Origin: Spirochaetia bacterium
GTDB taxonomy: Bacteria > Spirochaetota > Spirochaetia > DSM-2461
Reading direction: 5' to 3'
NCBI GenBank assembly: GCA_963668315.1
Contig: OY764216.1
Coordinates: 3,232,001 to 3,296,000, forward strand
DNA: 64,000 nucleotides
Numbering within the stretch: the stretch's first letter is position 1; every line of letters starts with the position of its first letter. Below the pieces are notes generated by a model. That model searched no databases. It was not told the DNA's origin and saw nothing but the letters and a program-made list of their open reading frames with translations. A program made the translations under genes and the position numbers. Shown one piece after another: positions 4,475 through 64,000 of the stretch.

Positions 4475-4475
4475 T

Positions 4476-6152: not shown

Positions 6153-6154
6153 TA

Positions 6155-6646
6155 TCAGGCCTTCTGCCCGGAATACTCCAGAACCTCATCAACTTTGTAT
6201 TCAACGGGAATACCCGCCTGGCGGAACATCTCTTCCGATTCGGCCCCCGCATGGTAGCGTCTCTCGCAGACCACCCGGGAAATACCGCAGGAAATGATGA
6301 GCATACAGCAGACACGGCAGGGTGTCATGCGGCAGTAAAGGGTCGCCCCGTCCAGGGATATGCCCCTTTTGGCGGCCTGGCATATGGCATTCTGCTCGGC
6401 ATGAATGGTGCGGACGCAGTGCTGGGTTACCGAGCCGTCCTCGTGTATTGTCTTTTTAAACTGATGGCCCGCTTCGTCGCAGTGGGGCAGCCCCGGGGGA
6501 GATCCTACATAACCGGTAACGAGAAGCTGGTTGTCCCTGGCAATGACACAGCCCGAACGGCCGCGGTCGCATGTGGCCCTTTTGGCAATGGCGTCGCAGA
6601 CTTCCATGAAATAGTCGTCCCAGGTGGGTCTGATATATTCGGACAA
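6155..6646 (-). CDS. dCMP deaminase (ComEB-like)
   Basis: RPTWDDYFM, HAEQNAI and PCxxC Zn motifs. Confidence 0.9.
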   Translation of the reverse strand: MSEYIRPTWDDYFMEVCDAIAKRATCDRGRSGCVIARDNQLLVTGYVGSPPGLPHCDEAGHQFKKTIHEDGSVTQHCVRTIHAEQNAICQAAKRGISLDGATLYCRMTPCRVCCMLIISCGISRVVCERRYHAGAESEEMFRQAGIPVEYKVDEVLEYSGQKA

Positions 6647-6706
6647 AGGGGTTCCTCCGTATTCTCCAAAGGGAGATTTCCTGTTATCATAGCATGGGTG
6701 ACAAAT

Positions 6707-7063
6707 ATGAACAATGAATTCTTAAGACAATACAAAAGAATAGGAAAGGCCTGCGGCTGGGATTTCTCCGGGAAAGAGGGAGAACTGAAGGAAGTGCTGG
6801 TCCATCTGACCGGAAAATTTCCCGAGGATATGTCGTGGGAAATCGCAGAAAATATCCTGGCCGGAGAGAATCTGGAATTGGAAGTCCAGAAGGGCGTTGA
6901 TATTCAGGATCTCCATAACGGGGAACTGAATGAATCGCAGTCCGTTCTGACTGAGAAGGACTGGCAGTTTCTCAAGGAAATCGTCAATGTCTATGCGGCG
7001 GAACTGGATATGGAATGGGTCACATACTTCATGCAGATCCTTCTGGACAGGGAGATCATATAA
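6707..7063 (+). CDS. Hypothetical acidic protein (118 aa)
   Basis: 3' part of ORF 6251..7063 from ATG 6707 (MNNEFL...); the upstream part is antisense to the deaminase. Confidence 0.6.
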   Translation: MNNEFLRQYKRIGKACGWDFSGKEGELKEVLVHLTGKFPEDMSWEIAENILAGENLELEVQKGVDIQDLHNGELNESQSVLTEKDWQFLKEIVNVYAAELDMEWVTYFMQILLDREII

Positions 7064-7085
7064 ATTAAAAAATAACAAAAATACT

Positions 7086-7114
7086 TTGACAATTTTACCA
7101 CGCCCTTCTAAACT
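7086..7114 (+). promoter_or_regulatory. Sigma70-type promoter of the glycogen operon
   Basis: TTGACA-17 nt-TAAACT. Confidence 0.7.
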
Positions 7115-7171
7115 GAAGTATAAGCCCGGGAGGGCGTGAACCATATTTATAATCCCTTCGGGAGGGAATGA

Positions 7172-8437
7172 ATGAACAAAGTGATGACTATTATTCTTGG
7201 TGGCGGAAAAGGGTCCCGTCTATATCCCCTTACTATGGAAAGGGCGAAGCCCGCCGTTCCTTTCGGAGCGAAATTCCGCTTGATCGATGTTCCCATTTCC
7301 AACAGTATCAATTCGGGGATGAATCAGATTTATATTCTGACCCAGTTTGAATCGGCTTCCCTGAATAAACACATCAGCCAGTCCTACCGTTTTGACTCAT
7401 TTTCCGGAGGATTCGTAGAGATCCTGGCTGCCTCCCAGAACTATAATAACAACGGCTGGTACGAGGGAACGGCCGATGCGGTTAGAAAAAACTTCAGCCG
7501 GTTCCATCCCCATAAGCCCGATACCTATCTTATCCTCTCCGGTGATCAGCTTTATAAAATGGATATCGTTGACTTCATGAGAAAGCATTTTGAAAGCGGG
7601 GCGGATATCAGCATCGCCGCGACGCCGGTCACACGGGGCGACGCGGAAGGACTGGGAATCCTGAAAATCGATGATAAGGGAAGAATCACCAATTTCGTGG
7701 AAAAGCCTTCCGCCGATCAGGATATATCCGATCTGCGGGTTCCCGGTAAGAATGAAGATCCCCGCAAGGAGTATCTGGCATCCATGGGTATCTATATCTT
7801 CAATGCCTCGGCGATGGAGAAGTGCCTGAATAACGACTTTACCGATTTCGGGCACCAGGTCATTCCCGAAGCGATCAATACCCACAAGGTTCAGTCCTAT
7901 GTCTACAACGGCTACTGGGAAGATATCGGTACCATACGGAACTTCTACGAAGCCAATCTGAATATGGCGTCCCCTCTGCCCAACTACAACCTGTACGATG
8001 AGGACAACCCCGTATACACCCATATGAGAAATCTCCCTCCCTCCAAAATGCTGGCCTGCAGTTTCAACAACGCCATGGCGGCCGAGGGATCCATTATCAG
8101 CAACTCTTCCATCAGCAACTCCCTCATAGGAATCAGAACCATTATCCGCCAGGGCGCTTCCCTCGACGGCGTCTACATTATGGGAGCCGATCAGTATGAA
8201 ACGGATCAGGACAAGGAAGAGAACAGGGAGAAGGGTATCCCCCATATCGGAATCGGTGCGGGGACGGTCATTAAAGGGGCCATCATAGATAAAAACGCCC
8301 GGATAGGAAGCAATTGCCGGTTGGGAATCGACTCCAACAGGGATAGAACCGATGGTGATTACGGGTACTACCACATAGTGGATAATATCATCATCATTCA
8401 TAAGGACGCGGTTATTCACGACGGCACGGTCATCTAG
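7172..8437 (+). CDS. glgC: Glucose-1-phosphate adenylyltransferase
   Basis: GGGKGSRLYPLT-x2-RAKPAVP, GTADAV, FVEKP and YWEDIGT motifs. Confidence 0.97.
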   Translation: MNKVMTIILGGGKGSRLYPLTMERAKPAVPFGAKFRLIDVPISNSINSGMNQIYILTQFESASLNKHISQSYRFDSFSGGFVEILAASQNYNNNGWYEGTADAVRKNFSRFHPHKPDTYLILSGDQLYKMDIVDFMRKHFESGADISIAATPVTRGDAEGLGILKIDDKGRITNFVEKPSADQDISDLRVPGKNEDPRKEYLASMGIYIFNASAMEKCLNNDFTDFGHQVIPEAINTHKVQSYVYNGYWEDIGTIRNFYEANLNMASPLPNYNLYDEDNPVYTHMRNLPPSKMLACSFNNAMAAEGSIISNSSISNSLIGIRTIIRQGASLDGVYIMGADQYETDQDKEENREKGIPHIGIGAGTVIKGAIIDKNARIGSNCRLGIDSNRDRTDGDYGYYHIVDNIIIIHKDAVIHDGTVI

Positions 8438-8448
8438 GCGGGTGCGGC

Positions 8449-10434
8449 GTGAAGGGAACGATGATTCATGAAGATCCTTATCTGTCCCCTTACCGGCACC
8501 AGCTTAAGGAAAGGTTCCATAGGCATTTTCACAAAAAAAAGGAATTAGCCGGAAAAGGCACCCTGGAGGAGTTCGCCAGGGGGTATGAGTGGTACGGAAT
8601 ACAGCGTAAGGCGGGGGGATGGACCCTCCGTGAGTGGCTCCCCCGGGCAACGGAGGTCTTTCTTCTATTCAACGGCAGCGGCTGGTCTCCCCTGAATGAG
8701 TGGCGCTTTTCCCGGCGTGAGAATTCGGAGGACTGGGAGCTTTTTGTATCCGACGAATTTCTTGCCCCCGGAGATCATCTGAAGCTTCTCGTGCGATGGG
8801 AAGGGGGGGAGGGTGTCCGGCTTCCCGCCTATACATTCCTTTCCCACCAGGACAGCAGGACCTATGAGTTTACCGCCCGGGCCTATGAAGCGGGGCATTT
8901 CGACTGGAAAATCAGGGATTTTCGCCCCTCCGCTCCGCTGCTTATCTATGAGACTCACATCGGAATGGCCCCCGAGGAGGGAAAGGTCGGTTCCTTTGAG
9001 GAGTTTCGCACCGATACCCTTCCGAGAATAATGAAAGCCGGCTATAACGCTGTGCAGATCATGGCTCTCATGGAACACCCCTATTACGGTTCCTTCGGGT
9101 ACCAGGTCTCCAGCTTTTTCGCTCTCTCAAGCCGCTTCGGGTCTCCGGAGAGTTTCAAAAGGCTGGTGGATGAGTGTCACGAAAAGGGTCTCGCGGTGAT
9201 AATGGATCTTGTCCATAGCCACGGGGTGAAAAACCAGATTGAAGGTTTAAGCCATCAGGACGGAACGGAATACGCCTATTTCCATTCCGGCCCCCGGGGC
9301 AACCACCCCGCCTGGGATTCCCGCTGTTTTGACTACGGGAAAAATCAGGTTCTTCATTTCCTCCTGTCCAACTGCGCCTGGTGGCTGAAAGAGTATAATC
9401 TGGACGGATTTCGTTTCGACGGCGTGACCAGCATGCTCTACTATGACCACGGGCTGGGCAACTGCTTTGATCATTATGACAAGTATTTCGGGGGCAATGT
9501 GGACGGGGAGGCTATCACCTACCTCTCCCTGGCCAACGAGCTTATCCACGAAATTAAACCCGGGGCTCTGACCATCGCGGAAGATATGAGCGGAATGCCC
9601 GGCATGGCCCGACCCCTGGAGGTGGGAGGTATCGGCTTTGATTACCGCCTGACCATGGGAATTCCCGATTACTGGATAAAGCTGCTCAAGGAGAAGGATG
9701 ACAAGTTCTGGAATGTCGATGAGCTCTGGGGCACCCTGAACAACCGGAGGTTCACCGAGAAGCACATAGCCTATGCCGAAAGCCACGACCAGGCTCTGGT
9801 GGGGGATAAGACCATAGCCTTCCGGCTGATGGACGCCGAAATGTATACCCATATGTCAAAGGATACCCCTTCCCTTGTCATTGACAGGGGAATGGCCCTG
9901 CATAAGATGATCCGTCTCCTGACCTTCTCTCTGGGGGGAGACGGCTACATGAATTTCATGGGTAACGAATTCGGCCATCCCGAATGGATCGATTTCCCCC
10001 GGGAGGGGAACGGCTGGAGCTACCACTACGCCAGAAGGCAGTGGTCTCTTGCTGAAAATGACTTCCTCCGCTACTCCCAGCTGGGTGCTTTCGACCGGAA
10101 CATGGTCTCCCTCTGCGCCCCCTCCCTCACGGATAAATATGCGAAAAAAGTGTTGAGTCATGTATCCGATCAGGTCCTGGTCTACACAAGGGGACCGCTT
10201 TTGTATATATTTAACTTGAGTCCGGAACGATCCTATCCGGATTACGCCGTGTATCCCGAAGAGGGGCGTTATCGTCTGGTCCTATCAACCGACGACGAAC
10301 AGTACGGCGGCTGGAACAGGATTCCCGGGGATTTGCAATTTGAGATAAGGATAAGGTCGGAAGGAGCGGTTCTTTACCTTCCCGCTCGTACGGCTCAGGT
10401 TTTTATAAATGACAAGGGAACTGAAGACAGATAG
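8449..10434 (+). CDS. glgB: 1,4-alpha-glucan branching enzyme (eukaryote/Bacteroidetes-like GH13_8 type)
   Basis: EHPYYGSFGYQV, GFRFDGVTSM, AEDMSG, YAESHDQALVGDKT and NFMGNEFGHPEWIDFPR motifs. Confidence 0.93.
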   Translation: MKGTMIHEDPYLSPYRHQLKERFHRHFHKKKELAGKGTLEEFARGYEWYGIQRKAGGWTLREWLPRATEVFLLFNGSGWSPLNEWRFSRRENSEDWELFVSDEFLAPGDHLKLLVRWEGGEGVRLPAYTFLSHQDSRTYEFTARAYEAGHFDWKIRDFRPSAPLLIYETHIGMAPEEGKVGSFEEFRTDTLPRIMKAGYNAVQIMALMEHPYYGSFGYQVSSFFALSSRFGSPESFKRLVDECHEKGLAVIMDLVHSHGVKNQIEGLSHQDGTEYAYFHSGPRGNHPAWDSRCFDYGKNQVLHFLLSNCAWWLKEYNLDGFRFDGVTSMLYYDHGLGNCFDHYDKYFGGNVDGEAITYLSLANELIHEIKPGALTIAEDMSGMPGMARPLEVGGIGFDYRLTMGIPDYWIKLLKEKDDKFWNVDELWGTLNNRRFTEKHIAYAESHDQALVGDKTIAFRLMDAEMYTHMSKDTPSLVIDRGMALHKMIRLLTFSLGGDGYMNFMGNEFGHPEWIDFPREGNGWSYHYARRQWSLAENDFLRYSQLGAFDRNMVSLCAPSLTDKYAKKVLSHVSDQVLVYTRGPLLYIFNLSPERSYPDYAVYPEEGRYRLVLSTDDEQYGGWNRIPGDLQFEIRIRSEGAVLYLPARTAQVFINDKGTEDR

Positions 10435-12361
10435 GGAATGGCTTGAAACGAACGGTATGGGCGGATTCGCTTCGTCCACCGAGGGGGACTGCCCCACAAG
10501 GAAGTATCACGGACTTCTGGTAACGCCCCTGGAAGGGCAGGAAGGGCGCTTCATGCTTCTGAATGAGGCGCAGATGATTCTTGATGAGGCCGACGGCCTG
10601 GCTCTGGGGAGCTTTCACTATCCCGGCGCTGTTCATCCCCGGGGGTATCTCTATCTGGAGTCATTCAGCCCCGACCCCTTTCCCACATGGATCTACGCCA
10701 AAGACGGGTACCGCATCAAAAAGGAGATCTTCATGCGCCAGGGAGATCCGGCGGTTTATGCGGCATGGACGCTTCTGGACCAGCCTGGTGGACCCGTTCT
10801 GCGCGGGGTAAAGGCGCGTATTCGCCTGCTCTGCACATTCAGGAACAGCCACCACCTGGCCAGTGAAAACGAAGATCTTTTCGATGAGGTGACGCCCGTA
10901 CCCCAGGGGTTTTCCATCAGTCCCTACTATGGTCTTCCCTTCCTGTGCTTTCAATTTTCCGAGGAGTTTAACCGGGAAGGGGAATTTTACTGGGACAGGA
11001 ATATCCAGTATCCTATGGAGAGGAGAAGGGGATTCGACTTTACCGAGGACCGCTTCGTTCCCGGTGACGTTACCTTGACCCTGAACCGTGATATCCCCTT
11101 TATTATGCAGGCCTCACTCAGCGCCCAGGACGATAAGGTTCAGGCTCTTCTTCTCAATAATTACAATGATGAGATTAAATCGCGGCGCAAGAGACTGCGC
11201 AGAGCCAAGACTCCCTGGAAGCGGCTGGAAGAGCAGTCCCGCCATTTTCTGGTGACCAACGGTGCGGGTCTGCTCTCCGTCGTGGCCGGTTATCCCTGGT
11301 TCGGCGAATGGGGCAGGGATACGATGATCGCCCTTCCCGGGCTCCTTTTCGCCACTCAGCCCGAGAAAGGGGCCCAGGTCCTCTGCGACTACGCCGCCCA
11401 TATAGAGAAAGGCCTGATCCCGAATACTCTGGGAGAGATGCAGGGGTTTACCTCCTATAACTCCCTGGACGGAAGCCTGCTCTATCTGCGGGCACTGGCC
11501 CTTCTCATGAAGGAAGGATTCGGGGAAAAGTCCGTGGAGAGGGACGTTCTGAAAAACGAGCTGTTCCCGGCGGTAAAAAAAATTGTCGACGCGTTTCTGG
11601 AGGGCAAGGTTCCCATGGCCCGTCTCACCGAAGAGGGGCTTCTCGAGGCCGGTTCGGAAAGGACGCAGTTAACCTGGATGGATGCCATGGTCGACGGTAA
11701 ACCGGTGACGCCGCGCCACGGGCTGGCCGTTGACCTCAACGCGCTCTGGTACGCCGGTCTCCGCCTCTACCAGGATATGTGCAGAACTTTCAGAAAGCCC
11801 TTTCCCCGCAAGGCCAGGCAGATACTGGAAAAGTTCCCCCTCCATTTCATGGATACCTTCTACCTGCCCGAATCGGGGTATCTGACCGATACGGTTTGCT
11901 ACGGCAGGCCCGACGGGAAACTCAGGCCCAATATGCTGTTCGCCACGGCCCTGGGACTTCTCCCCGAAAAGGAAGGGAAAGAGGTGGTGGCCATGGCCAG
12001 GAAATATCTGCTCACTCCCCTGGGAATGAGAACCCTGTCGCCCGGGGACCCCCAGTTCGCCCCTGTTTACGAAGGCGGCGGAGAGGAGAGGGACAGTGTA
12101 TACCACCAGGGAACGGTCTGGCCCTGGCCCCTCGGCATCATGATCGAATCCGCCCTGGCCTATAGTGAAGACAGGGACAAGGAAAAACTGTATTGGAAAG
12201 AGTATCTTGATAACTTTTTGGCTATTCATCTGGATCATCAGGGGATAGATTCCGTATCCGAAGTCTTCGATGGATTAAATCCCCTCGAAGGAAAAGGCTG
12301 TTTCGCCCAGGCATGGAGCGTGGGCGAACTATTGCGTTCATGGAGAATGATAAATGGATAA
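10409..12361 (+). CDS. Amylo-alpha-1,6-glucosidase (GDE_N + GDE_C, GH133)
   Basis: EWLETNGMGG, AGYPWFGEWGRDTMIALPG, TWMDA, YHQGTVWPW and QAWSVGE motifs. Confidence 0.92.
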   Translation: MTRELKTDREWLETNGMGGFASSTEGDCPTRKYHGLLVTPLEGQEGRFMLLNEAQMILDEADGLALGSFHYPGAVHPRGYLYLESFSPDPFPTWIYAKDGYRIKKEIFMRQGDPAVYAAWTLLDQPGGPVLRGVKARIRLLCTFRNSHHLASENEDLFDEVTPVPQGFSISPYYGLPFLCFQFSEEFNREGEFYWDRNIQYPMERRRGFDFTEDRFVPGDVTLTLNRDIPFIMQASLSAQDDKVQALLLNNYNDEIKSRRKRLRRAKTPWKRLEEQSRHFLVTNGAGLLSVVAGYPWFGEWGRDTMIALPGLLFATQPEKGAQVLCDYAAHIEKGLIPNTLGEMQGFTSYNSLDGSLLYLRALALLMKEGFGEKSVERDVLKNELFPAVKKIVDAFLEGKVPMARLTEEGLLEAGSERTQLTWMDAMVDGKPVTPRHGLAVDLNALWYAGLRLYQDMCRTFRKPFPRKARQILEKFPLHFMDTFYLPESGYLTDTVCYGRPDGKLRPNMLFATALGLLPEKEGKEVVAMARKYLLTPLGMRTLSPGDPQFAPVYEGGGEERDSVYHQGTVWPWPLGIMIESALAYSEDRDKEKLYWKEYLDNFLAIHLDHQGIDSVSEVFDGLNPLEGKGCFAQAWSVGELLRSWRMING

Positions 12362-14810
12362 GAAGCAGGAAGGAATGAGCGGTAAGGACAGTATTATTAA
12401 GGCCTATTGCTCGCATATGAAGTATAACCTGTCCATGGGAGTGGAAGAGTGCGACGACATCGATAAATATATATCCCTGGCCTATGCTGTCAGAGACAGA
12501 ATTATAGACCGCTGGTTTGAGACGAGAACAAAAGACAAAGAGGAGAAGGGGAAATCGGTTAACTATTTTTCCTTCGAATTCCTCATGGGCCGTGCCCTGA
12601 CCAATAACATGATCAATCTGGGCATAGCCGATGATGTCTTTCAGGCCCTGCCCGAACTGGGGATCGACTGGCAGGAGCTCCAGGATGCCATAAAGGACAG
12701 CGGCCTGGGAAACGGCGGCCTGGGAAGGCTGGCCGCCTGTTTTCTCGACTCCCTTGCTACTCTGGGATATCCGGCTTACGGCTACGGTCTCCGGTATAAG
12801 TACGGTTTTTTCAAGCAGGATATTCAGAACGGCTACCAGGTGGAAGAGGCGGACGACTGGCTCAGAAACGGTAACCCCTGGGAGATCAAGCGCTACGATC
12901 TGGGCGTAACCGTGAAATTCGGCGGCCGGGTGGCGCGGAACAAAATGGGCCGGAGCTTTTGGGTGGAGACGGAGAAGGTGGCGGGCGTGCCCTATGATAC
13001 CCCCGTCGTCGGCTACGGCGGAGACCGGGTTAATACTCTTCGCCTCTGGGATGCCCGCAGCGTGGAGGATTTCGATTTTCAGGATTTCAACAAGGGAAAT
13101 TACGACGCCTCCATTGATGACAGGGTGAAGGCGGAAACCCTGACCATGGTCCTCTATCCGAATGATGAGATCAGCGAAGGGGTGGAGCTGAGGTTCAAGC
13201 AGCAGTATTTCTTCGTCAGCTGTTCCCTGCAGGATATCTTCAGAAGGTTCAAAGCCATGGATCTTCCCCTGGACCAGTTCCCCGAAAAAATGGCTGTCCA
13301 GCTGAACGACACCCATCCGGCCATCGCCGTGGCCGAGCTCATGCGTCTTCTGATTGATATTGAGCAGCTTGAGTGGGAGGAAGCCTGGGACATCACGATA
13401 AGGACCATGGGGTACACCAACCATACCCTGATGCCCGAAGCTCTGGAGACCTGGTCGGTGGAGCTTTTCGAGAAATTCCTGCCCCGCCATCTGGAAATCA
13501 TCTATCAGATAAATCATTTCTTCATGCAGGATGTGGCGGGAAGTTTCCCCGGGGATTTCGATAAGATGGAAAGACTCAGCCTTATTTCGGAAAAGGGAGG
13601 AAAAAGGGTCAGGATGGCCCATCTGGCTATTCTCGGTTCCCACTCCGTAAACGGCGTGGCGGCCCTGCACTCCCGGCTGATCAAGGAGAATCTTGTCCCC
13701 GACTTCTACGGATATTTTCCCGAAAGGTTCAATAACAAGACGAACGGCATAACCCAGAGAAGATGGCTTTTGAAATCGAACAAACCCCTGGCCGATCTGA
13801 TTACCGGTGCCATCGGTGATAAATGGATTACCGATCTTTACGAGCTCCAGCGTTTGAAAGATTATAAGAATGACGAGGGCTTTCTCGAGGAACTGAGAAA
13901 GGTCAAGAGGGCGGGCAAGGAGACACTGGCCGTACACTGCAAGAGACAGTTCGATATTACTTTGGATCCGGACACCCTTTTCGATGTCCAGGTTAAACGA
14001 ATCCATGAGTACAAAAGGCAGCTTCTCAACCTGCTTCACGTGGTCGCCCTCTATAACCGGATACGCCAGGGTGAGGAGATCCAGCCCAGGACCGTTATTT
14101 TCAGCGGAAAAGCGGCTCCGGGATACTTCATGGCTAAACTGATAATCAAGCTGATCAATAATGTGGCCTCCGTGATTAACGGTGACAAAAAAGCCCGCCA
14201 GATGCTGCACATGCATTTTCTTCCCAATTATTCCGTCTCTCTGGCCGAGATGATTTTTCCTGCCGCCGATCTCTCCGAACAGATATCCACTGCGGGAACC
14301 GAGGCTTCCGGTACGGGAAATATGAAGTTCATACTCAACGGAGCGCTCACCATGGGAACTCTTGACGGAGCGAATATAGAGATTCTGGAGGAAGTCGGCC
14401 AGGAGAATATGTTCATATTCGGCCTGAAAGCCCATGAGGTGGAAGGATTGAAGGGCCATTATGATCCGATGGAGTATCTCCTTGAAAGCCATGAATTGAA
14501 AAGCGCCATGGAGCTCATAAACAGTAACTATTTCAATATCAGCGAGCGGGGGATATTCAAGCCCCTGACCGACAATCTGATGAATCATGACTACTATATG
14601 CACTTTGCCGATTTCGCTTCCTACGCCGAAGCCCAGAGAAAGGCCGAGGCCTATTACAGGGACAAGGACAGCTGGACCCGTTCCTCCCTTATGAATATCG
14701 CCGGATCGGGAAAATTTTCTTCCGACCGGACCATTCGGGAATACGCCGAGCAGATATGGAAAATCCAGTCCTGTCCCGTGGGGAAAGGTAAGGTGAATGG
14801 GAATTCCTGA
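12354..14810 (+). CDS. glgP: Glycogen phosphorylase
   Basis: GLGNGGLGRLAACF, QLNDTHP, KRIHEYKRQ and the EASGTGNMK PLP-lysine motif. Confidence 0.97.
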   Translation: MDKKQEGMSGKDSIIKAYCSHMKYNLSMGVEECDDIDKYISLAYAVRDRIIDRWFETRTKDKEEKGKSVNYFSFEFLMGRALTNNMINLGIADDVFQALPELGIDWQELQDAIKDSGLGNGGLGRLAACFLDSLATLGYPAYGYGLRYKYGFFKQDIQNGYQVEEADDWLRNGNPWEIKRYDLGVTVKFGGRVARNKMGRSFWVETEKVAGVPYDTPVVGYGGDRVNTLRLWDARSVEDFDFQDFNKGNYDASIDDRVKAETLTMVLYPNDEISEGVELRFKQQYFFVSCSLQDIFRRFKAMDLPLDQFPEKMAVQLNDTHPAIAVAELMRLLIDIEQLEWEEAWDITIRTMGYTNHTLMPEALETWSVELFEKFLPRHLEIIYQINHFFMQDVAGSFPGDFDKMERLSLISEKGGKRVRMAHLAILGSHSVNGVAALHSRLIKENLVPDFYGYFPERFNNKTNGITQRRWLLKSNKPLADLITGAIGDKWITDLYELQRLKDYKNDEGFLEELRKVKRAGKETLAVHCKRQFDITLDPDTLFDVQVKRIHEYKRQLLNLLHVVALYNRIRQGEEIQPRTVIFSGKAAPGYFMAKLIIKLINNVASVINGDKKARQMLHMHFLPNYSVSLAEMIFPAADLSEQISTAGTEASGTGNMKFILNGALTMGTLDGANIEILEEVGQENMFIFGLKAHEVEGLKGHYDPMEYLLESHELKSAMELINSNYFNISERGIFKPLTDNLMNHDYYMHFADFASYAEAQRKAEAYYRDKDSWTRSSLMNIAGSGKFSSDRTIREYAEQIWKIQSCPVGKGKVNGNS

Positions 14811-57174: not shown

Positions 57175-58155
57175 CTAATTGTAATTTTCCAGACAAAGCT
57201 GCCATTCCTTAAGGATTTCTTCCTTTAACTCAACCGGTTCAATCACTTGTGCTTCTGAACCGTAGGACATAATCCATTTCTTTACATCGTACCAGCCGGA
57301 TGTGGTCATTGTCAGGAGGAGCCTTCCGTCATTCTGGGTTTTTATTTTCTGGTCGGAAGCCCATTTCCTTTCCCGGATATATCGGGCTTGATTCCTTGAG
57401 AAGAGGATTTTGTATTCGCGCGGTTCTTCGAATGTCAGGTTGAAAGCCGTGTCCAGAAGTTCTTGGGGATCAAAACCATTAGGCCGAATAAATGTTTCAT
57501 CCATAATTTCAAGAGTCTTAATCCTCTCAAGGGCCAGAGTTCGTATATCGGTATGTTCGTTAATCTGAGTGAAAAAATAGAAGCCCCCGTCTCTCTGGAA
57601 CAGGTGAAGGGGATGGATATTATAGGTTTTAATCTTGTCATCCCAAAAGGAGTGGTAGATTACCCGGCAGACCTTATGGGAAAGCATGGCGGAGATAAGA
57701 TCTTCCAGTATTTCTTCCTTATCGGAATAATCCTTATTCTGAGTATCACCCATTAGCATGATTTCCGAGAGTGTTCGAAATTGCTGAAGATGATTTCTGT
57801 CTATGGTAAATATTTTATTAAAAGCCCTGTTGATGTATTCGCTGAATTGGGTATTCTTAAAAATTTCAGAACGGCTCCAGAGGAACATGAGAGCTGTTGC
57901 TTCACCTGCATCAAGGTCCAGATAGGGAACTTTTACTCTATTGTCCTGACGTATGTAGTTAAGAGAAAGATAAAATCGTTTCTTTCCCTCCCCATCATTT
58001 TTTTCCTGAAGAGGAAAAATCATTCTGATACCATCAATCTCTCTCTGTGCCGTGCGGTAGGAACATTCATATATATCCATTATTTCCTCATAGGAAGCCC
58101 CATTGTAACGTGCGAGGAGAGTAATAATTTCTAAAAAATCTCGTATTTTTTTCAT
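57175..58155 (-). CDS. HTH-WYL-WCX transcriptional regulator
   Basis: CSYRTAQREI HTH; Y-x-S, HPLHL and IRTLALERI WYL core; WIMSYGSEAQVIEP WCX. Confidence 0.9.
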   Translation of the reverse strand: MKKIRDFLEIITLLARYNGASYEEIMDIYECSYRTAQREIDGIRMIFPLQEKNDGEGKKRFYLSLNYIRQDNRVKVPYLDLDAGEATALMFLWSRSEIFKNTQFSEYINRAFNKIFTIDRNHLQQFRTLSEIMLMGDTQNKDYSDKEEILEDLISAMLSHKVCRVIYHSFWDDKIKTYNIHPLHLFQRDGGFYFFTQINEHTDIRTLALERIKTLEIMDETFIRPNGFDPQELLDTAFNLTFEEPREYKILFSRNQARYIRERKWASDQKIKTQNDGRLLLTMTTSGWYDVKKWIMSYGSEAQVIEPVELKEEILKEWQLCLENYN

Positions 58156-58237: not shown

Positions 58238-58681
58238 ATGTCAGATAAGGATATCATGAAAAATGAAGTGAAGAGAATTGCTGAAGCTCTCGGTAAATTT
58301 TTGGATTGTGAGCTTTTAGCAGGTGATGTTTCTGCTTCTGAAAAAATAGACAGTGAGGAATATGTATATTATCCGCTATTTTTGGATAAGAAAGAGGGAG
58401 TAACCGTTTCTATTGATTTCTACTTTAATACAAAAGAACCACACCGGATATCCCGTATCCATTTTTATTCCAGCATTGAATGCCAATCTCCGTGCATATT
58501 ACTTGTTGACAGGGGATATGATGAAGCCCTGGCGAATGATATGAAAATGATGTTGGATGGGATTCAGGGCAAGCCTCCGGTAAATGGTTTTTTTCTTGGG
58601 GAAGAGATTGTTTATGAGATTGACGATTCCATTAGAAAGACAGCGGAAGCTATCTGTGATGCTTTAGGTTATATGGACTAA
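58238..58681 (+). CDS. Hypothetical protein
   Basis: 147-aa ORF with GGAGG SD. Confidence 0.7.
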   Translation: MSDKDIMKNEVKRIAEALGKFLDCELLAGDVSASEKIDSEEYVYYPLFLDKKEGVTVSIDFYFNTKEPHRISRIHFYSSIECQSPCILLVDRGYDEALANDMKMMLDGIQGKPPVNGFFLGEEIVYEIDDSIRKTAEAICDALGYMD

Positions 58682-58708
58682 TTCTCATAAGGAAAGGGAG
58701 AGCTATCT

Positions 58709-58957
58709 ATGGATGAGCAATTAAGAATAACCGTTCATGAGAAGGAGTTCCTGGTAGATTGTAGTTCTATGACCCCTTATGACGGGTACTGCATCATATT
58801 GGAACCTAAGGAGTGGGCGGAGGAGATTATTTCGATCCCTCATATCTTTTATCTGGCCAGACCCTATATGGCGTTCAGGGATAAGGGAGAGATTAATGCC
58901 AGGGGGATTCAGGCCATCGAGAGGTCTCTGCAAAGATTGATAGGAAAGGATATATGA
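58709..58957 (+). CDS. Hypothetical protein (paralogous to the N-terminus of 60657..61307)
   Basis: GGGAG SD; shared K-x-F-x2-DCS-x4-Y-x-G-x-C pattern. Confidence 0.65.
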   Translation: MDEQLRITVHEKEFLVDCSSMTPYDGYCIILEPKEWAEEIISIPHIFYLARPYMAFRDKGEINARGIQAIERSLQRLIGKDI

Positions 58958-60141
58958 AAGATATAGAGAAAATACCCAACTGGATAACTGATAAGGTTGA
59001 GCTGGCCGAATCATGCTGGCCCAGGGCGGGAGGAGACAGGGCAAATCGTTCCCATGTTTCTATTCCCGGGCCGGATAAGGGAGAAATAATAAAAGAGATT
59101 GAACTGCCCATAGAGGAGAACGAGGACTTTTTCAGAGGAGTGTGGGGCTGCGTTGTCACGGATCACAATGACTTAAGGGTGCTTTACCGTGGCGTTTTAA
59201 CTGCGTTGACTATGGAGGGAGATCTCCTGTGGTATGTCAGGTTGAGTGATATTCCCGATATGGTTCCCGGTTACCAATTATGTCCTGTTGCCATAAAGGA
59301 TGGAGGTTGTCTCGTTCCATTAGAGAATGGAATCGTTATCCTGGATAATCAGGGGAAAATGTTTTCCAGATCGATTTTCGAAAAATCTCCATAGCCGATG
59401 ATATTCCCATTATCATTCTTGATGCTGATAATGACTCCGATGATGTTATGCACAACCATCGCTTTATATTGGAGGATACTCCGAATATTACAGAAGGGGG
59501 GGATATTATTGTCTCCGGTTGTTTTTTGGGTAATGTATTGCGGATTAATCAATCGGGAGTAAAAAATCTTGGCAATTTCGGCTATGACATTCCTTCGGTC
59601 GCCATTTATCCCGATAATTCGATGGCAATTTCCGGTTATTACCGTGCCGGTTTCTGCCGGGTAGACCGAGAGGGTAAAAAAGTATGGTCTACTCCTTTAG
59701 CGTATGCCGATTGTCTCCCGACAATCAATCGGAATAATGTAGCCGTCGTTGGCTCTCTTAATGATGGACTTTCTTCTTTTTTTACTGCAGAGGGATCACA
59801 AATCGGCAGCTATCATCGAACGGCTGTTTTCTCTGAGTATTCTCAGGATTTCTGGATTGCCCGGTCTGAGGAATATTGCAAAACTTTCTATTGACGGACA
59901 GGAGATCTGGGGGGGAGAACTCAGTGATGATGTGTCATTCAAAAATTACAAACCTATTGTCGACGGGACCGGTCGTATCTATGTCTTGGATAGTGATCAG
60001 CTTCTTTGTCTTTCTGGAGAAGGTGAGATTGTCTTTTCGCTTGCCTTTACGGAGCAGGAGAAATCCGTGAGAAGTCTCAGTTGTATATCTCCGGGAAGAA
60101 TGGCTCTCATTAATCATGGGAAATTGTTAATTATCGGGTAG
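58954..60141 (+). pseudogene. Doubly frameshifted PQQ/BamB-like beta-propeller gene
   Basis: Three consecutive frames with W-P-x2-GGD-x2-N and repeated G-x3-W blade motifs; frame changes near 59385 and 59876. Confidence 0.6.
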
Positions 60142-60180
60142 TGTTAAGAAGCCGGCAGGCGAACAGGATAAGGGGTATTT

Positions 60181-60516
60181 ATGAATAGGATGAATGAGGA
60201 AACAATAGACAATTTAAGCACTTATTATCATCTTCAATATTTCTTTTTTAACGGTATTGAATTCGTTCTGGATTCCCATAATCGGAAAAATTTTCTTGTT
60301 TATGAGTCATCCGGGGAAGAGAGGGATTTGGGAACAATAACTGCTGATTCCGATGAAGAGCTTCGTGAGAAAACAAGTGCTTTGGTGAAGAAAATGAAAC
60401 ATGACAAGTTTTCAACAGACCGGTGTTGGAGTGAAGAGTGGAGGGATTTATTTGAAGCTGAATCAATGGTTAAATCTGATAATTTATCGAGTCATCATAG
60501 ACAGGGCGGATTCTAG
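60181..60516 (+). CDS. Hypothetical protein
   Basis: 111-aa ORF with AAGGGG SD. Confidence 0.6.
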   Translation: MNRMNEETIDNLSTYYHLQYFFFNGIEFVLDSHNRKNFLVYESSGEERDLGTITADSDEELREKTSALVKKMKHDKFSTDRCWSEEWRDLFEAESMVKSDNLSSHHRQGGF

Positions 60517-60656
60517 TAGATCACCTTTCCGTATGTATAGTATATAACGAATTAAATCCATATAAACGTATTTCTTTACTCCCTGTCGTTGCTGTATCTG
60601 CAACGTTATGAAATCAGAGTATTTATGTCTGAATGTGATTTCGGCGGGAGGCTATT

Positions 60657-61307
60657 ATGAATGAACGGGTTGAAATATTGGTAAATGGTAAGACTTTTAT
60701 CCTGGATTGCAGCGGGCTGGAATCTTACGGGGGAAAATGCGTCGTTATGAAACCGGAGTGGATGGCGGGAGAGGATATCTGGTTGTTCCAGGATGATGAT
60801 CCGGATAATCCCGAATTGTATTATGTAAAAGGGACAGAAATCACATCGATAGGTTATTCTGCCCTGAACGTTGAACTGGAAAGAAGGCTTCATTTCAGAA
60901 CACATCTTGAAGGCGTTTCAAAGGAGGACTTTCTGGAGGAGCTGATTCTTTCAGCAGGGACTTTCTTTATTGAGGAGTGGAAGAGTACTCTGAAGTCAAA
61001 AACATGTGCCGATAAAATGGAAAAATCCCTTGAGGAGCGGGACTCCGAATTTTCTTCCGGTGAATTGATTTTCTTAAAAAGGGTTGTCCGTGAAGAAAAT
61101 GAAAGGCTGGAAGAGAAGATGGAGGAGCACAGTCTGCGCTTTCACAGAATTATTACTTCACTATTTAAAGAAAATACGGGTTTTACCCTGGAAGAGAAAG
61201 AAGTGAAGGCATTGATTCGTCATTGGAATATATACAGGGAATGGGGGATGGAAGAGCTGGTTTCTGATTATGTTTTTCCTCTAAAGATCAACTATGCGGG
61301 ATATTAA
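60657..61307 (+). CDS. Hypothetical protein
   Basis: 216-aa ORF with GGAGG SD; followed by a terminator. Confidence 0.7.
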   Translation: MNERVEILVNGKTFILDCSGLESYGGKCVVMKPEWMAGEDIWLFQDDDPDNPELYYVKGTEITSIGYSALNVELERRLHFRTHLEGVSKEDFLEELILSAGTFFIEEWKSTLKSKTCADKMEKSLEERDSEFSSGELIFLKRVVREENERLEEKMEEHSLRFHRIITSLFKENTGFTLEEKEVKALIRHWNIYREWGMEELVSDYVFPLKINYAGY

Positions 61308-61328: not shown

Positions 61329-61390
61329 AGTTTTTTTACATGACAGACTGGGATGAGTCTTGTAAAATGGTTAAAAAGAATATTAAAAAA

Positions 61391-62317
61391 ATGGATAGAT
61401 TGGAGCGGATAAAACAGATAGAAGAGATTCTCCTGGCCAATAACAAGGGCTGGACCCGGGCGGAACTGGCAAAGCGGTTCGGCGTGGACCGATCCACTGT
61501 AAAGCGGGATATCGACCGCATCCAGGAGAAGGACCTTTTGCCCCTGAGACTGGAGGGAGAGAAAATCTATCTGAACTGTTCCGCTTCGTTGAGCCATATT
61601 CCCATGGACATGCACGAGATGCTGGCCCTTCATCTGGCCACCCGCCTGCTTGTGAGAAAGAGCAGTTTTGCCTCTGAACATTTTATTTCCCTTCTCAGAA
61701 AGATATCCTCTTCCTTTGCGGATCATTCCGAGTTGATAAGCCGGTATATCGGCGATACAGCCGATGGGTTTGAAGAGCTGAATCGGGGGCGGGTGAACCA
61801 CAGGCGCACGGAGAACCTGGAACTGCTGAACCGGGCCTGGGCTGAGCAGAAGAAGGTGAAAATCCAGTACAAGGTTAAGGATACGGTTAAATCCTATACC
61901 TGCGGAATTTACTGCTTTGAACCCTATGCGGACGGAGTTTCGCTTTATGTGATCGCCCAGTGCGACGGGAAGGAACGGCTGAGCCATTTTAAGCTGGAAC
62001 GGATCCAAAACGTTAAGATAACCCGTGAGGGGTATGAGATACCCGTTGATTTTAATCCCCACCGGTATTTCCGGGATTCCTGGGGCATCTGGGTATCCCA
62101 TGAACAGCCGGTACGGGTGCGGCTTAAGTTTAATGCGGACGCGGCTGAGCGGATACGGGAAAACCGGTGGCATGTGTCCGAGGAAATAGAGGAGCTGGGG
62201 GACGGCGGCCTGGTATGGAGCGCCTGGATCAGCGAACCGAAGGAGATGGTGCCCTGGGTGCGGAGCTGGGGGGATCAGGTCGAGGTGCTGGAAGGTATTA
62301 ATATTAAGGTAGATTGA
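61391..62317 (+). CDS. HTH-WYL-WCX transcriptional regulator (last helix apparently replaced)
   Basis: RAELAKRFGVDRSTVKRDI HTH, FKLERI and PWVRSWGDQVEVLE motifs; ATG 61391 preferred over 61340. Confidence 0.88.
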   Translation: MDRLERIKQIEEILLANNKGWTRAELAKRFGVDRSTVKRDIDRIQEKDLLPLRLEGEKIYLNCSASLSHIPMDMHEMLALHLATRLLVRKSSFASEHFISLLRKISSSFADHSELISRYIGDTADGFEELNRGRVNHRRTENLELLNRAWAEQKKVKIQYKVKDTVKSYTCGIYCFEPYADGVSLYVIAQCDGKERLSHFKLERIQNVKITREGYEIPVDFNPHRYFRDSWGIWVSHEQPVRVRLKFNADAAERIRENRWHVSEEIEELGDGGLVWSAWISEPKEMVPWVRSWGDQVEVLEGINIKVD

Positions 62318-63270
62318 CAGTGTTTTTTACAAGTGATTCACAATCGATTTTCAATTATAGAAATTTTATCATGTCTATGGATAAGATCGTTATATTCTCT
62401 CCCTACATAAAAGAGTCAGCCATAAAAACTTTATTAGAGGGTTCTGAAAGTAAGGTAGAGACAATTATTACTACTTGGAAACCTATGGATTTAGCCATAG
62501 GAGTTACTGATCTTAGTATTTATCCCTATTGTAAAAAGTACAATATTCAACTTCTGATAAATAATCGGATCCATTTGAAAAGTATAGTATCAAGAAATTT
62601 TGGAAGTTGTACTATTTCTTCTGCAAATCTAACCAATAAAGGATTAGCATTATCTAATAATTATAATTTTGAACTTGGAACAATTAAGGATAATCTTTCC
62701 ATTGAGGAGAAGTGTTATTTTGATTCGATTATAGATAATTCGATTCTTGTTACAGATGACTATTATATGAGGATTAAAGAACAGGTTGAAAACATACCAG
62801 AAAAGATTCTTGACGTTCCTGAAGAGTTTGTACAACCACCAAAGGAGGAGAGATGTCTATCATCTGAATTGCCATATTTTGATAAACCACAAGATTTATT
62901 TGATGTCATTACTAACAGAGAAAATTACAGTGAAGAAGAAATCCGAAGTGCAATACATGATCTTAGGTTATATAATGTCATTAACGTAAATAATCAACAA
63001 CAGCTAATCACAGTACTGAGGAAAGAATTTAGGAATCATTTCTTTATTAAAGAATTTCTTAAGTTTAATTCTGATGGTAAACGATTTGGAGAATTAACAG
63101 CATGGCTTCATGATAAGATTGAAAACGTCCCTTCCCCAAAACGATATGAAGTGAAAGAATATTTACAGAGAATATATACATATATTGGATATTTACTTGA
63201 GGATGAATTCCAAATAACTATTCCGGGACGTCATTCTCAGGTTTTACAGAGGATAAGTAAATATGAGTGA
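62314..63270 (+). CDS. Phospholipase D-family (single HxK) putative nuclease
   Basis: SPYI, HLK, SSANLT-x2-GL and NFELG motifs; very AT-rich; true start may be ATG 62371. Confidence 0.8.
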   Translation: MTVFFTSDSQSIFNYRNFIMSMDKIVIFSPYIKESAIKTLLEGSESKVETIITTWKPMDLAIGVTDLSIYPYCKKYNIQLLINNRIHLKSIVSRNFGSCTISSANLTNKGLALSNNYNFELGTIKDNLSIEEKCYFDSIIDNSILVTDDYYMRIKEQVENIPEKILDVPEEFVQPPKEERCLSSELPYFDKPQDLFDVITNRENYSEEEIRSAIHDLRLYNVINVNNQQQLITVLRKEFRNHFFIKEFLKFNSDGKRFGELTAWLHDKIENVPSPKRYEVKEYLQRIYTYIGYLLEDEFQITIPGRHSQVLQRISKYE

Positions 63271-64000
63271 TAATATAGGGCAGTATATAAAGAATATCTC
63301 AGTTGGTATATCTGTTGGGATTAGTACAAGAGAAAGAAGAAATGAAATTTATAAAGGTATTGTTAAAAAGTTACTAACAAAAAGTGAGTTTCATACACAT
63401 GGGATAATGGTTGAATTAGTGGATGGAACGATTGGAAGAGTAAAAGAGATTTATTCTTCTAGCGATAAGAATAACGATAACAATAACCCTGAAAAAAAAA
63501 TACCTGAAGAAGAGCTCAATACAAATGAAAAGTTAAATAGTAATAGAACGCCCCAAATGGATTCAATCTCAATAGAAGAGGATGATACAGGTTATTCGTA
63601 TAGAAATTTATTTTACCCTTATATAAAGAATGCAACGGAAGTTGTTCTTGAAGATGCATATATTCGTATGGAACATCAAATAAAAAACCTTGGTTTCTTT
63701 TGTACTTTGTTTAGTGATCAGGATAATAAAATCAAGTTCCATCTTAAGACTAATTCAGATAATTCATTCAAAGAGCAGGAGCAAAAAAGAAAACTTGAAG
63801 AATTAAGAAAAAACCTTGATGAACTGAATATTCTCTTTACTTATGAATTTGATGAGACACTACATGATCGAATTATTCGGACAAATACTGGATGGAAAAT
63901 TATTCTTGGCCGGGGACTAGATATTTATAAAGATCCAGGTTCGTATTATTCTCCAGCAAATTTTGATCAGACAAAGCGGAAGTGTAAAAAAACAGAAATA
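63263..64000 (+). CDS. YwbE(DUF2196)-like + MIT_C (PLD-like) fusion protein, runs off right edge (absent from ORF track)
   Basis: 246 open codons by hand translation. N-terminus: GIVKKLLTKSEFHTHGIMVELVDGTIGRVKEI. Asn-rich linker. C-terminus: TGYSY-x2-LF, EDAYIR-x2-HQIKNL, LHDR-x-I-x-TNTGWKIILGRGLDIY. Confidence 0.8.
   Translation, partial: MSDNIGQYIKNISVGISVGISTRERRNEIYKGIVKKLLTKSEFHTHGIMVELVDGTIGRVKEIYSSSDKNNDNNNPEKKIPEEELNTNEKLNSNRTPQMDSISIEEDDTGYSYRNLFYPYIKNATEVVLEDAYIRMEHQIKNLGFFCTLFSDQDNKIKFHLKTNSDNSFKEQEQKRKLEELRKNLDELNILFTYEFDETLHDRIIRTNTGWKIILGRGLDIYKDPGSYYSPANFDQTKRKCKKTEI

What the first reader, a model, noticed from the sequence alone, without database searches (positions are those of the whole stretch)
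61334..64000. Candidate undescribed defence module: WYL regulator + PLD nuclease + YwbE-MIT_C fusion
Seen: three co-oriented, overlapping genes (TTGA overlap at 62314-62317, ATGAGTGA at 63263-63270), with an imperfect inverted repeat upstream. The last two genes are very AT-rich (hand counts: 15/60 GC in line 62641 versus 37/60 in line 62161). Known: WYL proteins (BrxR, CapW) regulate anti-phage operons. Single-HxK PLD proteins act as dimeric nucleases (BfiI, Nuc, DISARM DrmC). MIT_C is a PLD-like fold found on some BREX BrxL proteins and human MITD1. Inference: two different PLD-fold proteins, one with HxK and one with an HDR motif, under WYL control could form a heteromeric nuclease or a stand-alone anti-phage system. 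No BREX, DISARM or RM core genes are visible within the window.
Basis: partly seen in the sequence, partly recalled or inferred. Interest (0 to 1): 0.78.

Follow-up and report, generated by a model that had tools for sequence, protein, structure and literature searches.

The report
Extra nuclease arm of sulfur-marking defence
The three genes are the front end of a ten-gene locus for putting sulfur marks on the cell's own DNA; the nuclease gene belongs to a widespread but unnamed helicase-ATPase-nuclease set that likely cuts unmarked phage DNA, joined here by a rare second predicted nuclease and a swappable repressor that likely controls the operon.

Summary
The genes, overlaps, GC drop and domains are real, but the trio is not a stand-alone system. 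Past the window edge, on the same strand, follow an SF2 helicase, a MORC-like GHKL ATPase, sspABCD and an IS-broken sspE: an Ssp phosphorothioate locus. The PLD gene belongs to a helicase-GHKL-nuclease cassette. In 16 other loci, 14 have the PLD, 14 are linked to sspB/sspC, and none has YwbE-MIT_C. The PLD keeps its catalytic residues in 31 of 31 homologues, and its C-terminal half weakly resembles FokI/SspB/BrxA recognition domains (Z 6-7). Best reading: a phosphorothioate-guarded, ATP-driven restriction arm, not found in the papers searched; this scan has noted the cassette before on other DNA (15 findings). Particular to this locus: YwbE-MIT_C is a plug-in gene that precedes helicases of other restriction-like systems and appears tied to this PLD subclade (four shared contig lengths, indirect). 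The WYL gene is a host-GC regulator whose relatives head a type I-C CRISPR and a type IV restriction gene. Nothing shows anti-phage activity. New variant of a known kind; interest 0.58.

The parts
61334..61368 (+). Predicted promoter (-35 ATGACA 61340-61345, -10 TAAAAT 61363-61368) straddled by an 11-bp imperfect inverted repeat; candidate WYL operator
   Evidence: 28 of 500 shuffles give such a repeat; BrxR binds an 11-bp one-mismatch repeat (PMC9122601, passages)
61340..62317 (+). HTH-WYL-WCX regulator (BrxR/CapW-like architecture); likely start 61391; GC 0.52, like the genome (0.51)
62314..63270 (+). PLD-family nuclease (res 1-160; H87, K89, S103, N105, E120) plus C-terminal tandem HTH/wHTH region (res 176-318); GC 0.30
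63263..64000 (+). YwbE (DUF2196) beta-barrel, disordered linker, MIT_C PLD-like domain (D131, H201-D202-R203); the gene ends 27 bases past the window (L001 3263-4027)
64000..64000 (+). Marker for the continuation beyond the window, in L001 coordinates (L001 = window position minus 60000): SF2 helicase 4020-5633; MORC-like GHKL ATPase 5649-7451; sspA 7552-8730; sspB 8727-9647; sspC 9644-12934; sspD 12934-13746; sspE in two pieces (L001 13959-15530 and L002 4520-5320) around a 9,022-bp IS3-bounded block
   Evidence: (SspA 7e-122, SspB 3.5e-98, SspC 2.8e-138, SspD 4.6e-95, SspE 4.7e-247)

Best explanation
The three genes are the first of ten co-oriented genes that include sspABCD, and the PLD gene, with the downstream helicase and MORC-like ATPase, likely forms an ATP-driven restriction complex that would cut DNA lacking the Ssp sulfur mark. 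Steps: (1) shown: the locus, its domains, intact catalytic motifs and the cassette's linkage to ssp genes in other genomes. (2) From established knowledge: SspABCD place phosphorothioates on one strand, mainly at CCA motifs. (3) Inferred: a PLD homodimer builds one Nuc/BfiI-type active site, and its FokI/SspB/BrxA-like C-terminal half reads the target motif. (4) Inferred: the helicase translocates and the GHKL clamp couples ATP to cutting, a SauUSI-like job split over three proteins; sulfur at the motif blocks cutting of self DNA. (5) Inferred: WYL represses the operon from the promoter repeat until single-stranded DNA appears. (6) Inferred: YwbE-MIT_C is an optional back-up or auxiliary phosphodiesterase derived from the BrxL tail domain, not an obligate partner of the PLD.
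For: Locus. Linkage: of 16 other loci found through the PLD or GHKL protein, all have helicase+GHKL and at least one ssp-type gene, 14 have sspB or sspC in the locus or within about 17 kb on the same replicon, 14 have the PLD. In one sample of 401 genomes of the phylum, DUF4007 occurs in 10, the GHKL in 3 and the full-length PLD in the same 3, each beside sspBC. Published raw data: HATPase_c_3 lies near sspD in 221 of 1056 neighbourhoods of one cluster, Helicase_C-ResIII in 99 of 237 of another (PMC12914056 supplement file 8). Catalytic residues H87, K89, N105, E120 in 31 of 31 rows. Fold: SauUSI Z 16.2, Nuc 14.5, BfiI 14.0; C-terminal half 3bhw 7.1, N.BspD6I 7.1, FokI 6.1, SspB 6.1, BrxA 5.7 over 128-137 residues. 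In 2 loci the third gene is a Cap4-like endonuclease instead (family name recalled), so the slot takes nucleases. sspE is broken and no second sspE or sspF/sspG was found in the genome, while cassette and sspABCD are intact. SspFGH precedent, with 83.9% of sspBCD lacking a known partner (PMC8092258 passages).
Against: No activity, toxicity or expression data. The C-terminal match is in the range the tool calls possibly a common arrangement (Z under 8), and profile comparison with SspB gave probability 0.2%. Two archaeal MAGs carry the cassette beside a cysteine desulfurase, yet no SspC or DUF4007 was found in them (completeness not given). Seven of the 10 DUF4007 genomes lack the cassette, so Ssp does not need it. 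Two of the three phylum hits are of one genus, so they are not independent. The G000 PLD has Arg at the HKD aspartate position (Asp in 17 of 31 rows). The strict MORC motif was not met. Direction of the sulfur read-out (protects or activates) is untested.
Confidence: 0.55

Rival explanations
1. The cassette is tied to Ssp but the sulfur mark switches it on rather than protecting (SspE-like sensing), or it kills the cell when a phage disables the Ssp proteins.
For: Same linkage data. SspE is active only when the mark is present (PMC8092258 passages). The closest solved fold, SauUSI, cuts modified DNA (PMC12707154 passage). A suicide mode is proposed for PbeA-type HKD-helicases (PMC10853773 passages).
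Against: No SRA or other known modified-base reader was detected in any cassette protein; the C-terminal resemblance is to sequence-recognition domains.
Confidence: 0.2
2. The cassette is an independent defence system that merely shares islands with ssp genes.
For: Two archaeal MAGs with no sspB/sspC found; gene order and orientation relative to ssp vary.
Against: 14 of 16 loci linked to sspB/sspC although DUF4007 is in only 10 of 401 sampled genomes; no methylase annotated inside any of the 12 annotated cassettes seen.
Confidence: 0.1
3. The cassette serves the modification side: it processes or repairs SspB nicks or oxidised phosphorothioate sites.
For: Helicase resembles the repair helicase RadD; GHKL ATPases include MutL; the cassette is often co-oriented with sspA.
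Against: IscS+SspBCD suffice for the system tested in E. coli; most sspD neighbourhoods lack the ATPase (835 of 1056); swapping in another endonuclease fits attack better than repair.
Confidence: 0.08
4. One reading: WYL, PLD and YwbE-MIT_C are a stand-alone system in which PLD and MIT_C form a heterodimeric nuclease.
For: The genes overlap; four PLD and four YwbE-MIT_C homologues share longest-contig lengths (3513, 2945, 4971, 2740) and their pairwise identities track each other; these PLDs lie with the G000 protein in a 7-member clade (100/98); in L015 the next gene also has a PLD domain.
Against: All 14 other full-length PLD homologues with fetched context sit with helicase+GHKL and none with MIT_C; YwbE-MIT_C in L014 has no hit to this PLD family nearby, G082 had no match to the PLD profile and has no DUF4007; the WYL differs in GC and its relatives head other systems.
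Confidence: 0.07

Closest known systems
SspABCD-SspE and SspABCD-SspFGH (PMC8092258, passages; Xiong 2020 seen only as cited)
   Same: Complete sspABCD and an sspE; an extra multi-gene ATPase-bearing module beside them; two restriction arms can share one modifier.
   Different: sspE is broken here; the cassette has no PADLOC hit to SspF, G or H (these models do score on true SspFGH in L063); it has PLD, SF2 and GHKL domains instead.
PbeA of PbeABCD (HKD nuclease fused to SF2 helicase; PMC10853773, passages)
   Same: PLD nuclease plus SF2 helicase beside phosphorothioate genes; PbeA is the helicase's best PADLOC hit (8e-30, helicase core only).
   Different: Nuclease and helicase are separate; partner ATPase is GHKL, not CxC-ABC; linked to ssp, not dnd; no PbeB/C/D hits.
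Prokaryotic MORC/paraMORC + Rad25-like helicase operons (PMC2292703, parts 1-2 of 4 read, main text term-searched)
   Same: GHKL ATPase with a type III-like SF2 helicase and a nuclease, sometimes HKD.
   Different: Described with methylases; the text has no mention of desulfurase, PAPS, phosphorothioate or dnd; here the PLD is a separate gene with its own HTH region.
SauUSI, BfiI, Nuc (solved PLD nucleases)
   Same: Single-HxK PLD fold, Z 14-16.
   Different: SauUSI is one chain with helicase and SRA and cuts methylated DNA; BfiI pairs with methylases (recalled).
BrxL-HKD tail, human MITD1 and Menshen PB-PLD1 (PMC12839542, PMC12065111, passages)
   Same: MIT_C fold (Z 21, 37% identity to MITD1), acidic residue plus HDR motif; 50% identical to the tail of a 683-aa BrxL-sized protein.
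   Different: Free of the AAA+ body and fused to YwbE; enzymatic activity of this domain is only a published hypothesis.
BrxR/CapW WYL regulators (PMC9122601, passages; PMC11662680, listing only)
   Same: HTH-WYL-WCX, first gene of a defence operon, 11-bp one-mismatch repeat at the promoter.
   Different: 12-bp rather than 5-bp spacer; that paper's main text does not mention Ssp or phosphorothioate; no NCBIfam BrxR/CapW hit.
TdpABC (An 2025; recalled, paper not held)
   Same: Recalled as a phosphorothioate system whose restriction half is an ATPase translocase plus a nuclease.
   Different: One-gene modifier tdpC against four-gene sspABCD here; not compared by sequence.

Membership tests
SspABCD modification module | Clustered cysteine desulfurase, DUF4007, ORC-type ATPase and PAPS-reductase genes | tested here: met
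   (SspA/B/C/D models, near full length)
SspABCD modification module | Single-strand phosphorothioate at CCA in the genome | not testable with these tools
   needs LC-MS or PT-seq
SspABCD-SspE | Intact DUF262-DUF1524 sspE | tested here: not met
   two pieces around a 9,022-bp insert; no second copy in the genome
SspFGH | SspF, SspG and FtsK-like SspH homologues | tested here: not met
   no PADLOC hits in the locus; tblastn of L063 SspF/G finds nothing in the genome, SspH only a C-terminal partial hit elsewhere
BREX type 1/4 | pglZ and full-length brxL with brxC | tested here: not met
DISARM | drmA, drmB (DUF1998) and a methylase beside drmC | tested here: not met
   only weak DrmC hits on the PLD (1e-6); no DrmA/DrmB/DrmM hits in the locus
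PbeABCD | HKD-helicase fusion with CxC ABC-ATPase and DndE cognate | tested here: not met
   PbeA hit covers profile 248-629 only; no PbeB/C/D hits
Prokaryotic MORC family | Four GHKL ATP-binding motifs | tested here: met
   ELIDNS, DNACGM, GKFGMG, GTL (motif labels recalled); HATPase_c_3 7e-16
Prokaryotic MORC family | GhXhhpXXRhl motif in the S5 domain (PMC2292703) | tested here: not met
   strict pattern 0 of 17; with Glu allowed at position 10, 16 of 17 and also 1 of 2 control ATPases: MORC-like or paraMORC, not filed as MORC
Nuc/BfiI-type PLD nuclease | PLD fold with H-x-K, S-x-N and downstream Glu | tested here: met
   (equivalence to Nuc's catalytic set is recalled, not superposed residue by residue)
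Nuc/BfiI-type PLD nuclease | DNase activity as a homodimer | not testable with these tools
   needs biochemistry
FokI/SspB/BrxA tandem-HTH recognition module | Structural match of PLD residues 176-318 | tested here: inconclusive
   Z 5.7-7.1, rmsd 3.1-3.9, 128-137 aligned; no profile match; domain not folded alone
BrxR/CapW regulators | HTH-WYL-WCX architecture at the head of a defence operon | tested here: met
BrxR/CapW regulators | Binding to an upstream inverted repeat and repression | tested here: inconclusive
   repeat present but 28 of 500 shuffles match it; no such repeat found upstream of the two relatives

The most novel reading that the evidence does not exclude
The helicase-MORC-PLD cassette is the missing restriction arm of about a fifth of ssp loci and reads the same motif as SspB through a related HTH module, and in this subclade the YwbE-MIT_C protein is a working second nuclease of the complex: the first tractable proof that the MITD1/BrxL MIT_C domain is an enzyme, with YwbE as a portable adaptor that plugs effectors (MIT_C, Schlafen) onto helicase-driven defence systems.
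Probability: 0.2. Interest if true: 0.82.

Novelty: new variant of a known kind. Interest (0 to 1): 0.58.

Why it matters
Most sspBCD clusters have no known restriction partner (83.9% in PMC8092258), and this cassette is a concrete, clonable candidate whose domains are common in published neighbourhood tables yet not discussed there. It would also give a MORC-like ATPase a role in reading a backbone mark. The small free-standing MIT_C protein is a convenient subject for testing whether the domain shared by BrxL tails and human MITD1 has catalytic activity. Tempering this, the cassette has been noted repeatedly by this scan and nothing here is shown at the bench.

Tried and rejected
Complex prediction of PLD (1-170) with MIT_C (92-254): no answer, score 0.00 against a mark of 0.32; it is neither support nor evidence against. 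Viral contigs: no relative of the PLD or of YwbE-MIT_C; no PLD match in GenBank phages. PLD not found in 60 relatives or the 37 other genomes of the order. Helicase search: none of the 120 listed hits (of 4075) shares a contig length with the four PLD/YwbE-MIT_C pairs, so a helicase on those short contigs is unconfirmed. Profile comparison of the PLD C-terminal half with SspB, and of the PLD with the 359-aa replacement gene: nothing. Sequence searches of PDB with the PLD profile and the GHKL: nothing meaningful. Atlas: PLD tail best score 0.78, YwbE only its own family. YwbE fold: only a weak match to a HERC2 domain, Z 4.6, not used. Sequencing runs: no RNA holder listed; contigs confirm the assembly from WYL to sspE with no differing letters, but probably come from the source sample. 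Promoter scan overall finds fewer sites than shuffles (40 against 57.6), so the site rests on conservation. The cluster look-up and the sensitive 1.84-billion-protein search could not be made, so the contexts of most YwbE-MIT_C homologues and the full family size remain open. Rejected: WYL as a Cas3 fragment (its best PADLOC hit is the WYL part of a Cas3c model, but its closest relatives are separate genes ahead of cas3 or a type IV enzyme); BREX and DISARM membership.
Full report
1. Observation. The third gene is complete at 254 aa, 27 bases past the window. Pfam gives HTH_11+WYL+WCX, DUF2196+MIT_C, and a sub-threshold PLDc_2 (E 2e-4). An AlphaFold model of the second protein (mean pLDDT 88, 17-row alignment) matches SauUSI (Z 16.2, rmsd 2.1, 146 aligned), Nuc (14.5), NucT and BfiI (14.0) over residues 1-160. 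The third protein (pLDDT 83) matches MITD1 at Z 21, 37% identity. The inverted repeat is real but marginal alone (28 of 500 shuffles); it covers a -35/-10 pair also present upstream of two WYL relatives.

2. The locus continues. Right of the window, on the same strand, lie an SF2 helicase (8-base overlap with YwbE-MIT_C), a GHKL ATPase (15-base gap), and after 100 bases sspA, sspB, sspC, sspD (overlapping) and sspE. sspE is split by a 9,022-bp block bounded by IS3-type ends and a 3-bp direct repeat; an earlier scan note holds that this block arrived by recombination rather than as a composite transposon, which I did not test. All nine genes after the WYL have GC 0.30-0.39 (sspE measured on its first piece) against 0.51 for the genome and 0.52 for the WYL gene. 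One 71-kb contig in each of two runs of one sample covers the stretch from the WYL to sspE without differing letters (probably the source sample).

3. What travels with the PLD. tblastn in plasmids gave 8 records for the PLD and 24 for the GHKL, 13 of them near full length. I fetched 7 of the 8 and 12 of the 13 (the one left out has scores identical to a fetched record), plus 2 of the 11 partial GHKL hits as controls. Genome collections added three loci and two more, one a near-duplicate counted once. Of the 16 distinct loci, all carry helicase+GHKL and at least one ssp-type gene; 14 have sspB or sspC in the locus or within about 17 kb on the replicon; 14 carry the PLD; 0 carry YwbE-MIT_C; 1 has a WYL gene, about 11 kb away on the other strand; the two controls have no hit to helicase, PLD or Ssp queries. 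The named hosts include cyanobacteria, alphaproteobacteria, Bacteroidota, a spirochaete, Verrucomicrobiota and archaea. Against linkage: in the two archaeal MAGs neither SspC nor DUF4007 was found. In one sample of 401 genomes of the phylum, the GHKL scored in 3, the full-length PLD in the same 3 (36 further genomes gave only short or weak matches), and DUF4007 in 10; two of the three are congeneric. The order PLD-(YwbE-MIT_C)-helicase-GHKL-sspA is seen only in G000; elsewhere the nuclease comes last.

4. Anatomy. H87, K89, N105, N118 and E120 are invariant in 31 of 31 PLD rows, S103 in 30; the HKD aspartate position varies (Asp in 17, Arg in G000). The C-terminal half aligns with 3bhw and N.BspD6I (Z 7.1), FokI and SspB (6.1) and BrxA (5.7) over 128-137 residues; these rank among single winged helices at Z 5.4-6.4 and below the tool's caution line of 8, and no profile similarity to SspB was found, so this is a lead. 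Helicase Walker A and DEAH are intact in 15 of 17 loci; the two exceptions are the loci whose third gene is a 359-aa protein with a CBASS-effector endonuclease hit (E 2e-10 and 7e-10). The GHKL has its ATP motifs; the MORC signature of PMC2292703 fails at one position in the strict form (0 of 17) and is met in 16 of 17 if Glu is allowed.

5. YwbE-MIT_C. Of 29 hits, 19 carry both domains (these 19 were aligned); HDR is present in 28 of 29. In plasmids only the MIT_C part matches, 17 of 22 records being annotated brxL. Of 15 metagenome loci, 3 hold the fusion (one cut off) and 12 only MIT_C, 8 of them in 672-685-aa frames. In 401 genomes the full fusion occurs in G000 and G082; the other 76 genomes match through YwbE alone or, once, a BrxL-like tail. 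Contexts: L015, two bases ahead of a PLD-SNF2 helicase and an Eco57I-type methylase; G082 (same upstream neighbours as L027), 251 bases ahead of a SNF2-NOV_C helicase in a BR-type-1-like operon (methylase label recalled), in a genome with no DUF4007; L014, overlapping a similar helicase (by inspection). So in 4 of 4 contexts with a visible downstream gene, G000 included, it precedes an SF2 helicase, of at least two families. This is indirect: the contigs could not be fetched. A YwbE-Schlafen fusion lies beside the cassette in L012 but not in L011.

6. WYL. The closest relatives are in G001 (65%), ahead of a NUDIX gene and a PLD-helicase-DUF3427 type IV enzyme, and in G000 itself (61%), ahead of cas3 of a type I-C CRISPR locus (cas labels by inspection). 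With its host-like GC, it is best read as a resident, reusable defence regulator under which the low-GC island has been placed (inference).

7. Mechanism and rivals. I commit to a phosphorothioate-guarded restriction arm (0.55): linkage and intact motifs are shown; marking chemistry is established knowledge (CCA preference: PMC12914056 passage); site reading by the HTH region, ATP coupling, protection by sulfur, WYL control and the auxiliary role of MIT_C are inferred. Rivals: mark-activated or suicide action (0.2), independent island neighbour (0.1), repair or modification helper (0.08), stand-alone PLD-MIT_C heterodimer (0.07).

8. Literature. Seen: PMC8092258, PMC10853773, PMC12065111, PMC9122601, PMC12707154, PMC12137116, PMC13712998 (passages); PMC2292703 (parts 1-2 of 4 and a term search); PMC12839542 (abstract, passages, section 29); PMC12914056 (passages; term searches of its supplements, one file not searched); PMC11662680 (listing only); Xiong 2020 and An 2025 (not read; cited or recalled). 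Nine searches surfaced no paper describing a helicase-GHKL-PLD partner of Ssp, judged from listings and the passages above, and none of the 30 papers listed (of 287) mentions YwbE or DUF2196. The 2025 review lists only DndFGH/SspFGH, SspE and PbeABCD as restriction branches. PMC12914056 has the association in its supplement (221 of 1056; 99 of 237) while its main text has no 'helicase', 'PLD' or 'HATPase'; I did not check that those Pfam neighbours are all this family. Subscription papers, bioRxiv supplements and the supplements of the two Rakesh papers were not seen and could name the cassette. PADLOC 2023 gave no full-length model hit for its three proteins.

9. Verdict. Observation confirmed; interpretation partly supported. 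The object is an Ssp locus with an unnamed cassette that this scan has reported before on other DNA, here in a variant with a plug-in YwbE-MIT_C gene, a borrowed WYL regulator and a broken sspE. New variant of a known kind; interest 0.58.

Noticed in passing
L063 5627-10107 and L064 10424-14877 (Agrobacterium and Aminobacter plasmids): Second cassette subtype: same GHKL, but the helicase has lost Walker A GKT and DEAH, and the PLD is replaced by a 359-aa protein with a CBASS-effector endonuclease hit; L063 also carries sspFGH.
   Followed up: partly
L001 15497 to L002 4518: 9,022-bp IS3-bounded block inside sspE, holding IS256, a nucleoside-deoxyribosyltransferase-like gene, two Fic-like genes (one scanned) and an AIPR gene.
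   Followed up: partly
L002 5431-7248 (-): Gene matching TIGR04096, 'DNA phosphorothioation-associated putative methyltransferase' (5e-145), about 110 bases past the sspE C-terminal piece, on the opposite strand.
   Followed up: no
window 57175-58155 (-): A second HTH-WYL-WCX gene, 3 kb upstream and divergent, facing a run of genes (58238-61307) with no Pfam hit (6 of 6 scanned).
   Followed up: no
L110 3717-16001 (G000 C1 about 4,845,700-4,858,000): WYL paralogue (61%) directly ahead of cas3 and a type I-C cas operon with a CRISPR array (labels by inspection).
   Followed up: partly
L012 5835-6542 (-): YwbE-Schlafen AlbA_2 fusion divergent from the archaeal GHKL-helicase-PLD cassette; not at that place in L011.
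   Followed up: partly
L006/L059 and L060: In these loci sspB-sspC-sspA lead straight into the cassette and no sspD hit was seen in the fetched stretch; the desulfurase is a distant match (E about 1e-15).
   Followed up: no
L010 5971-8277, L066 14722-15975, L005 6051-8387: DndB/DGQHR-type genes recur between sspD and the cassette in cyanobacterial and Roseobacter loci.
   Followed up: no
G000 C1 5,407,912-5,408,118 and 75 other genomes of the sample: Stand-alone YwbE genes are common in the phylum sample, unlike the MIT_C fusion.
   Followed up: no
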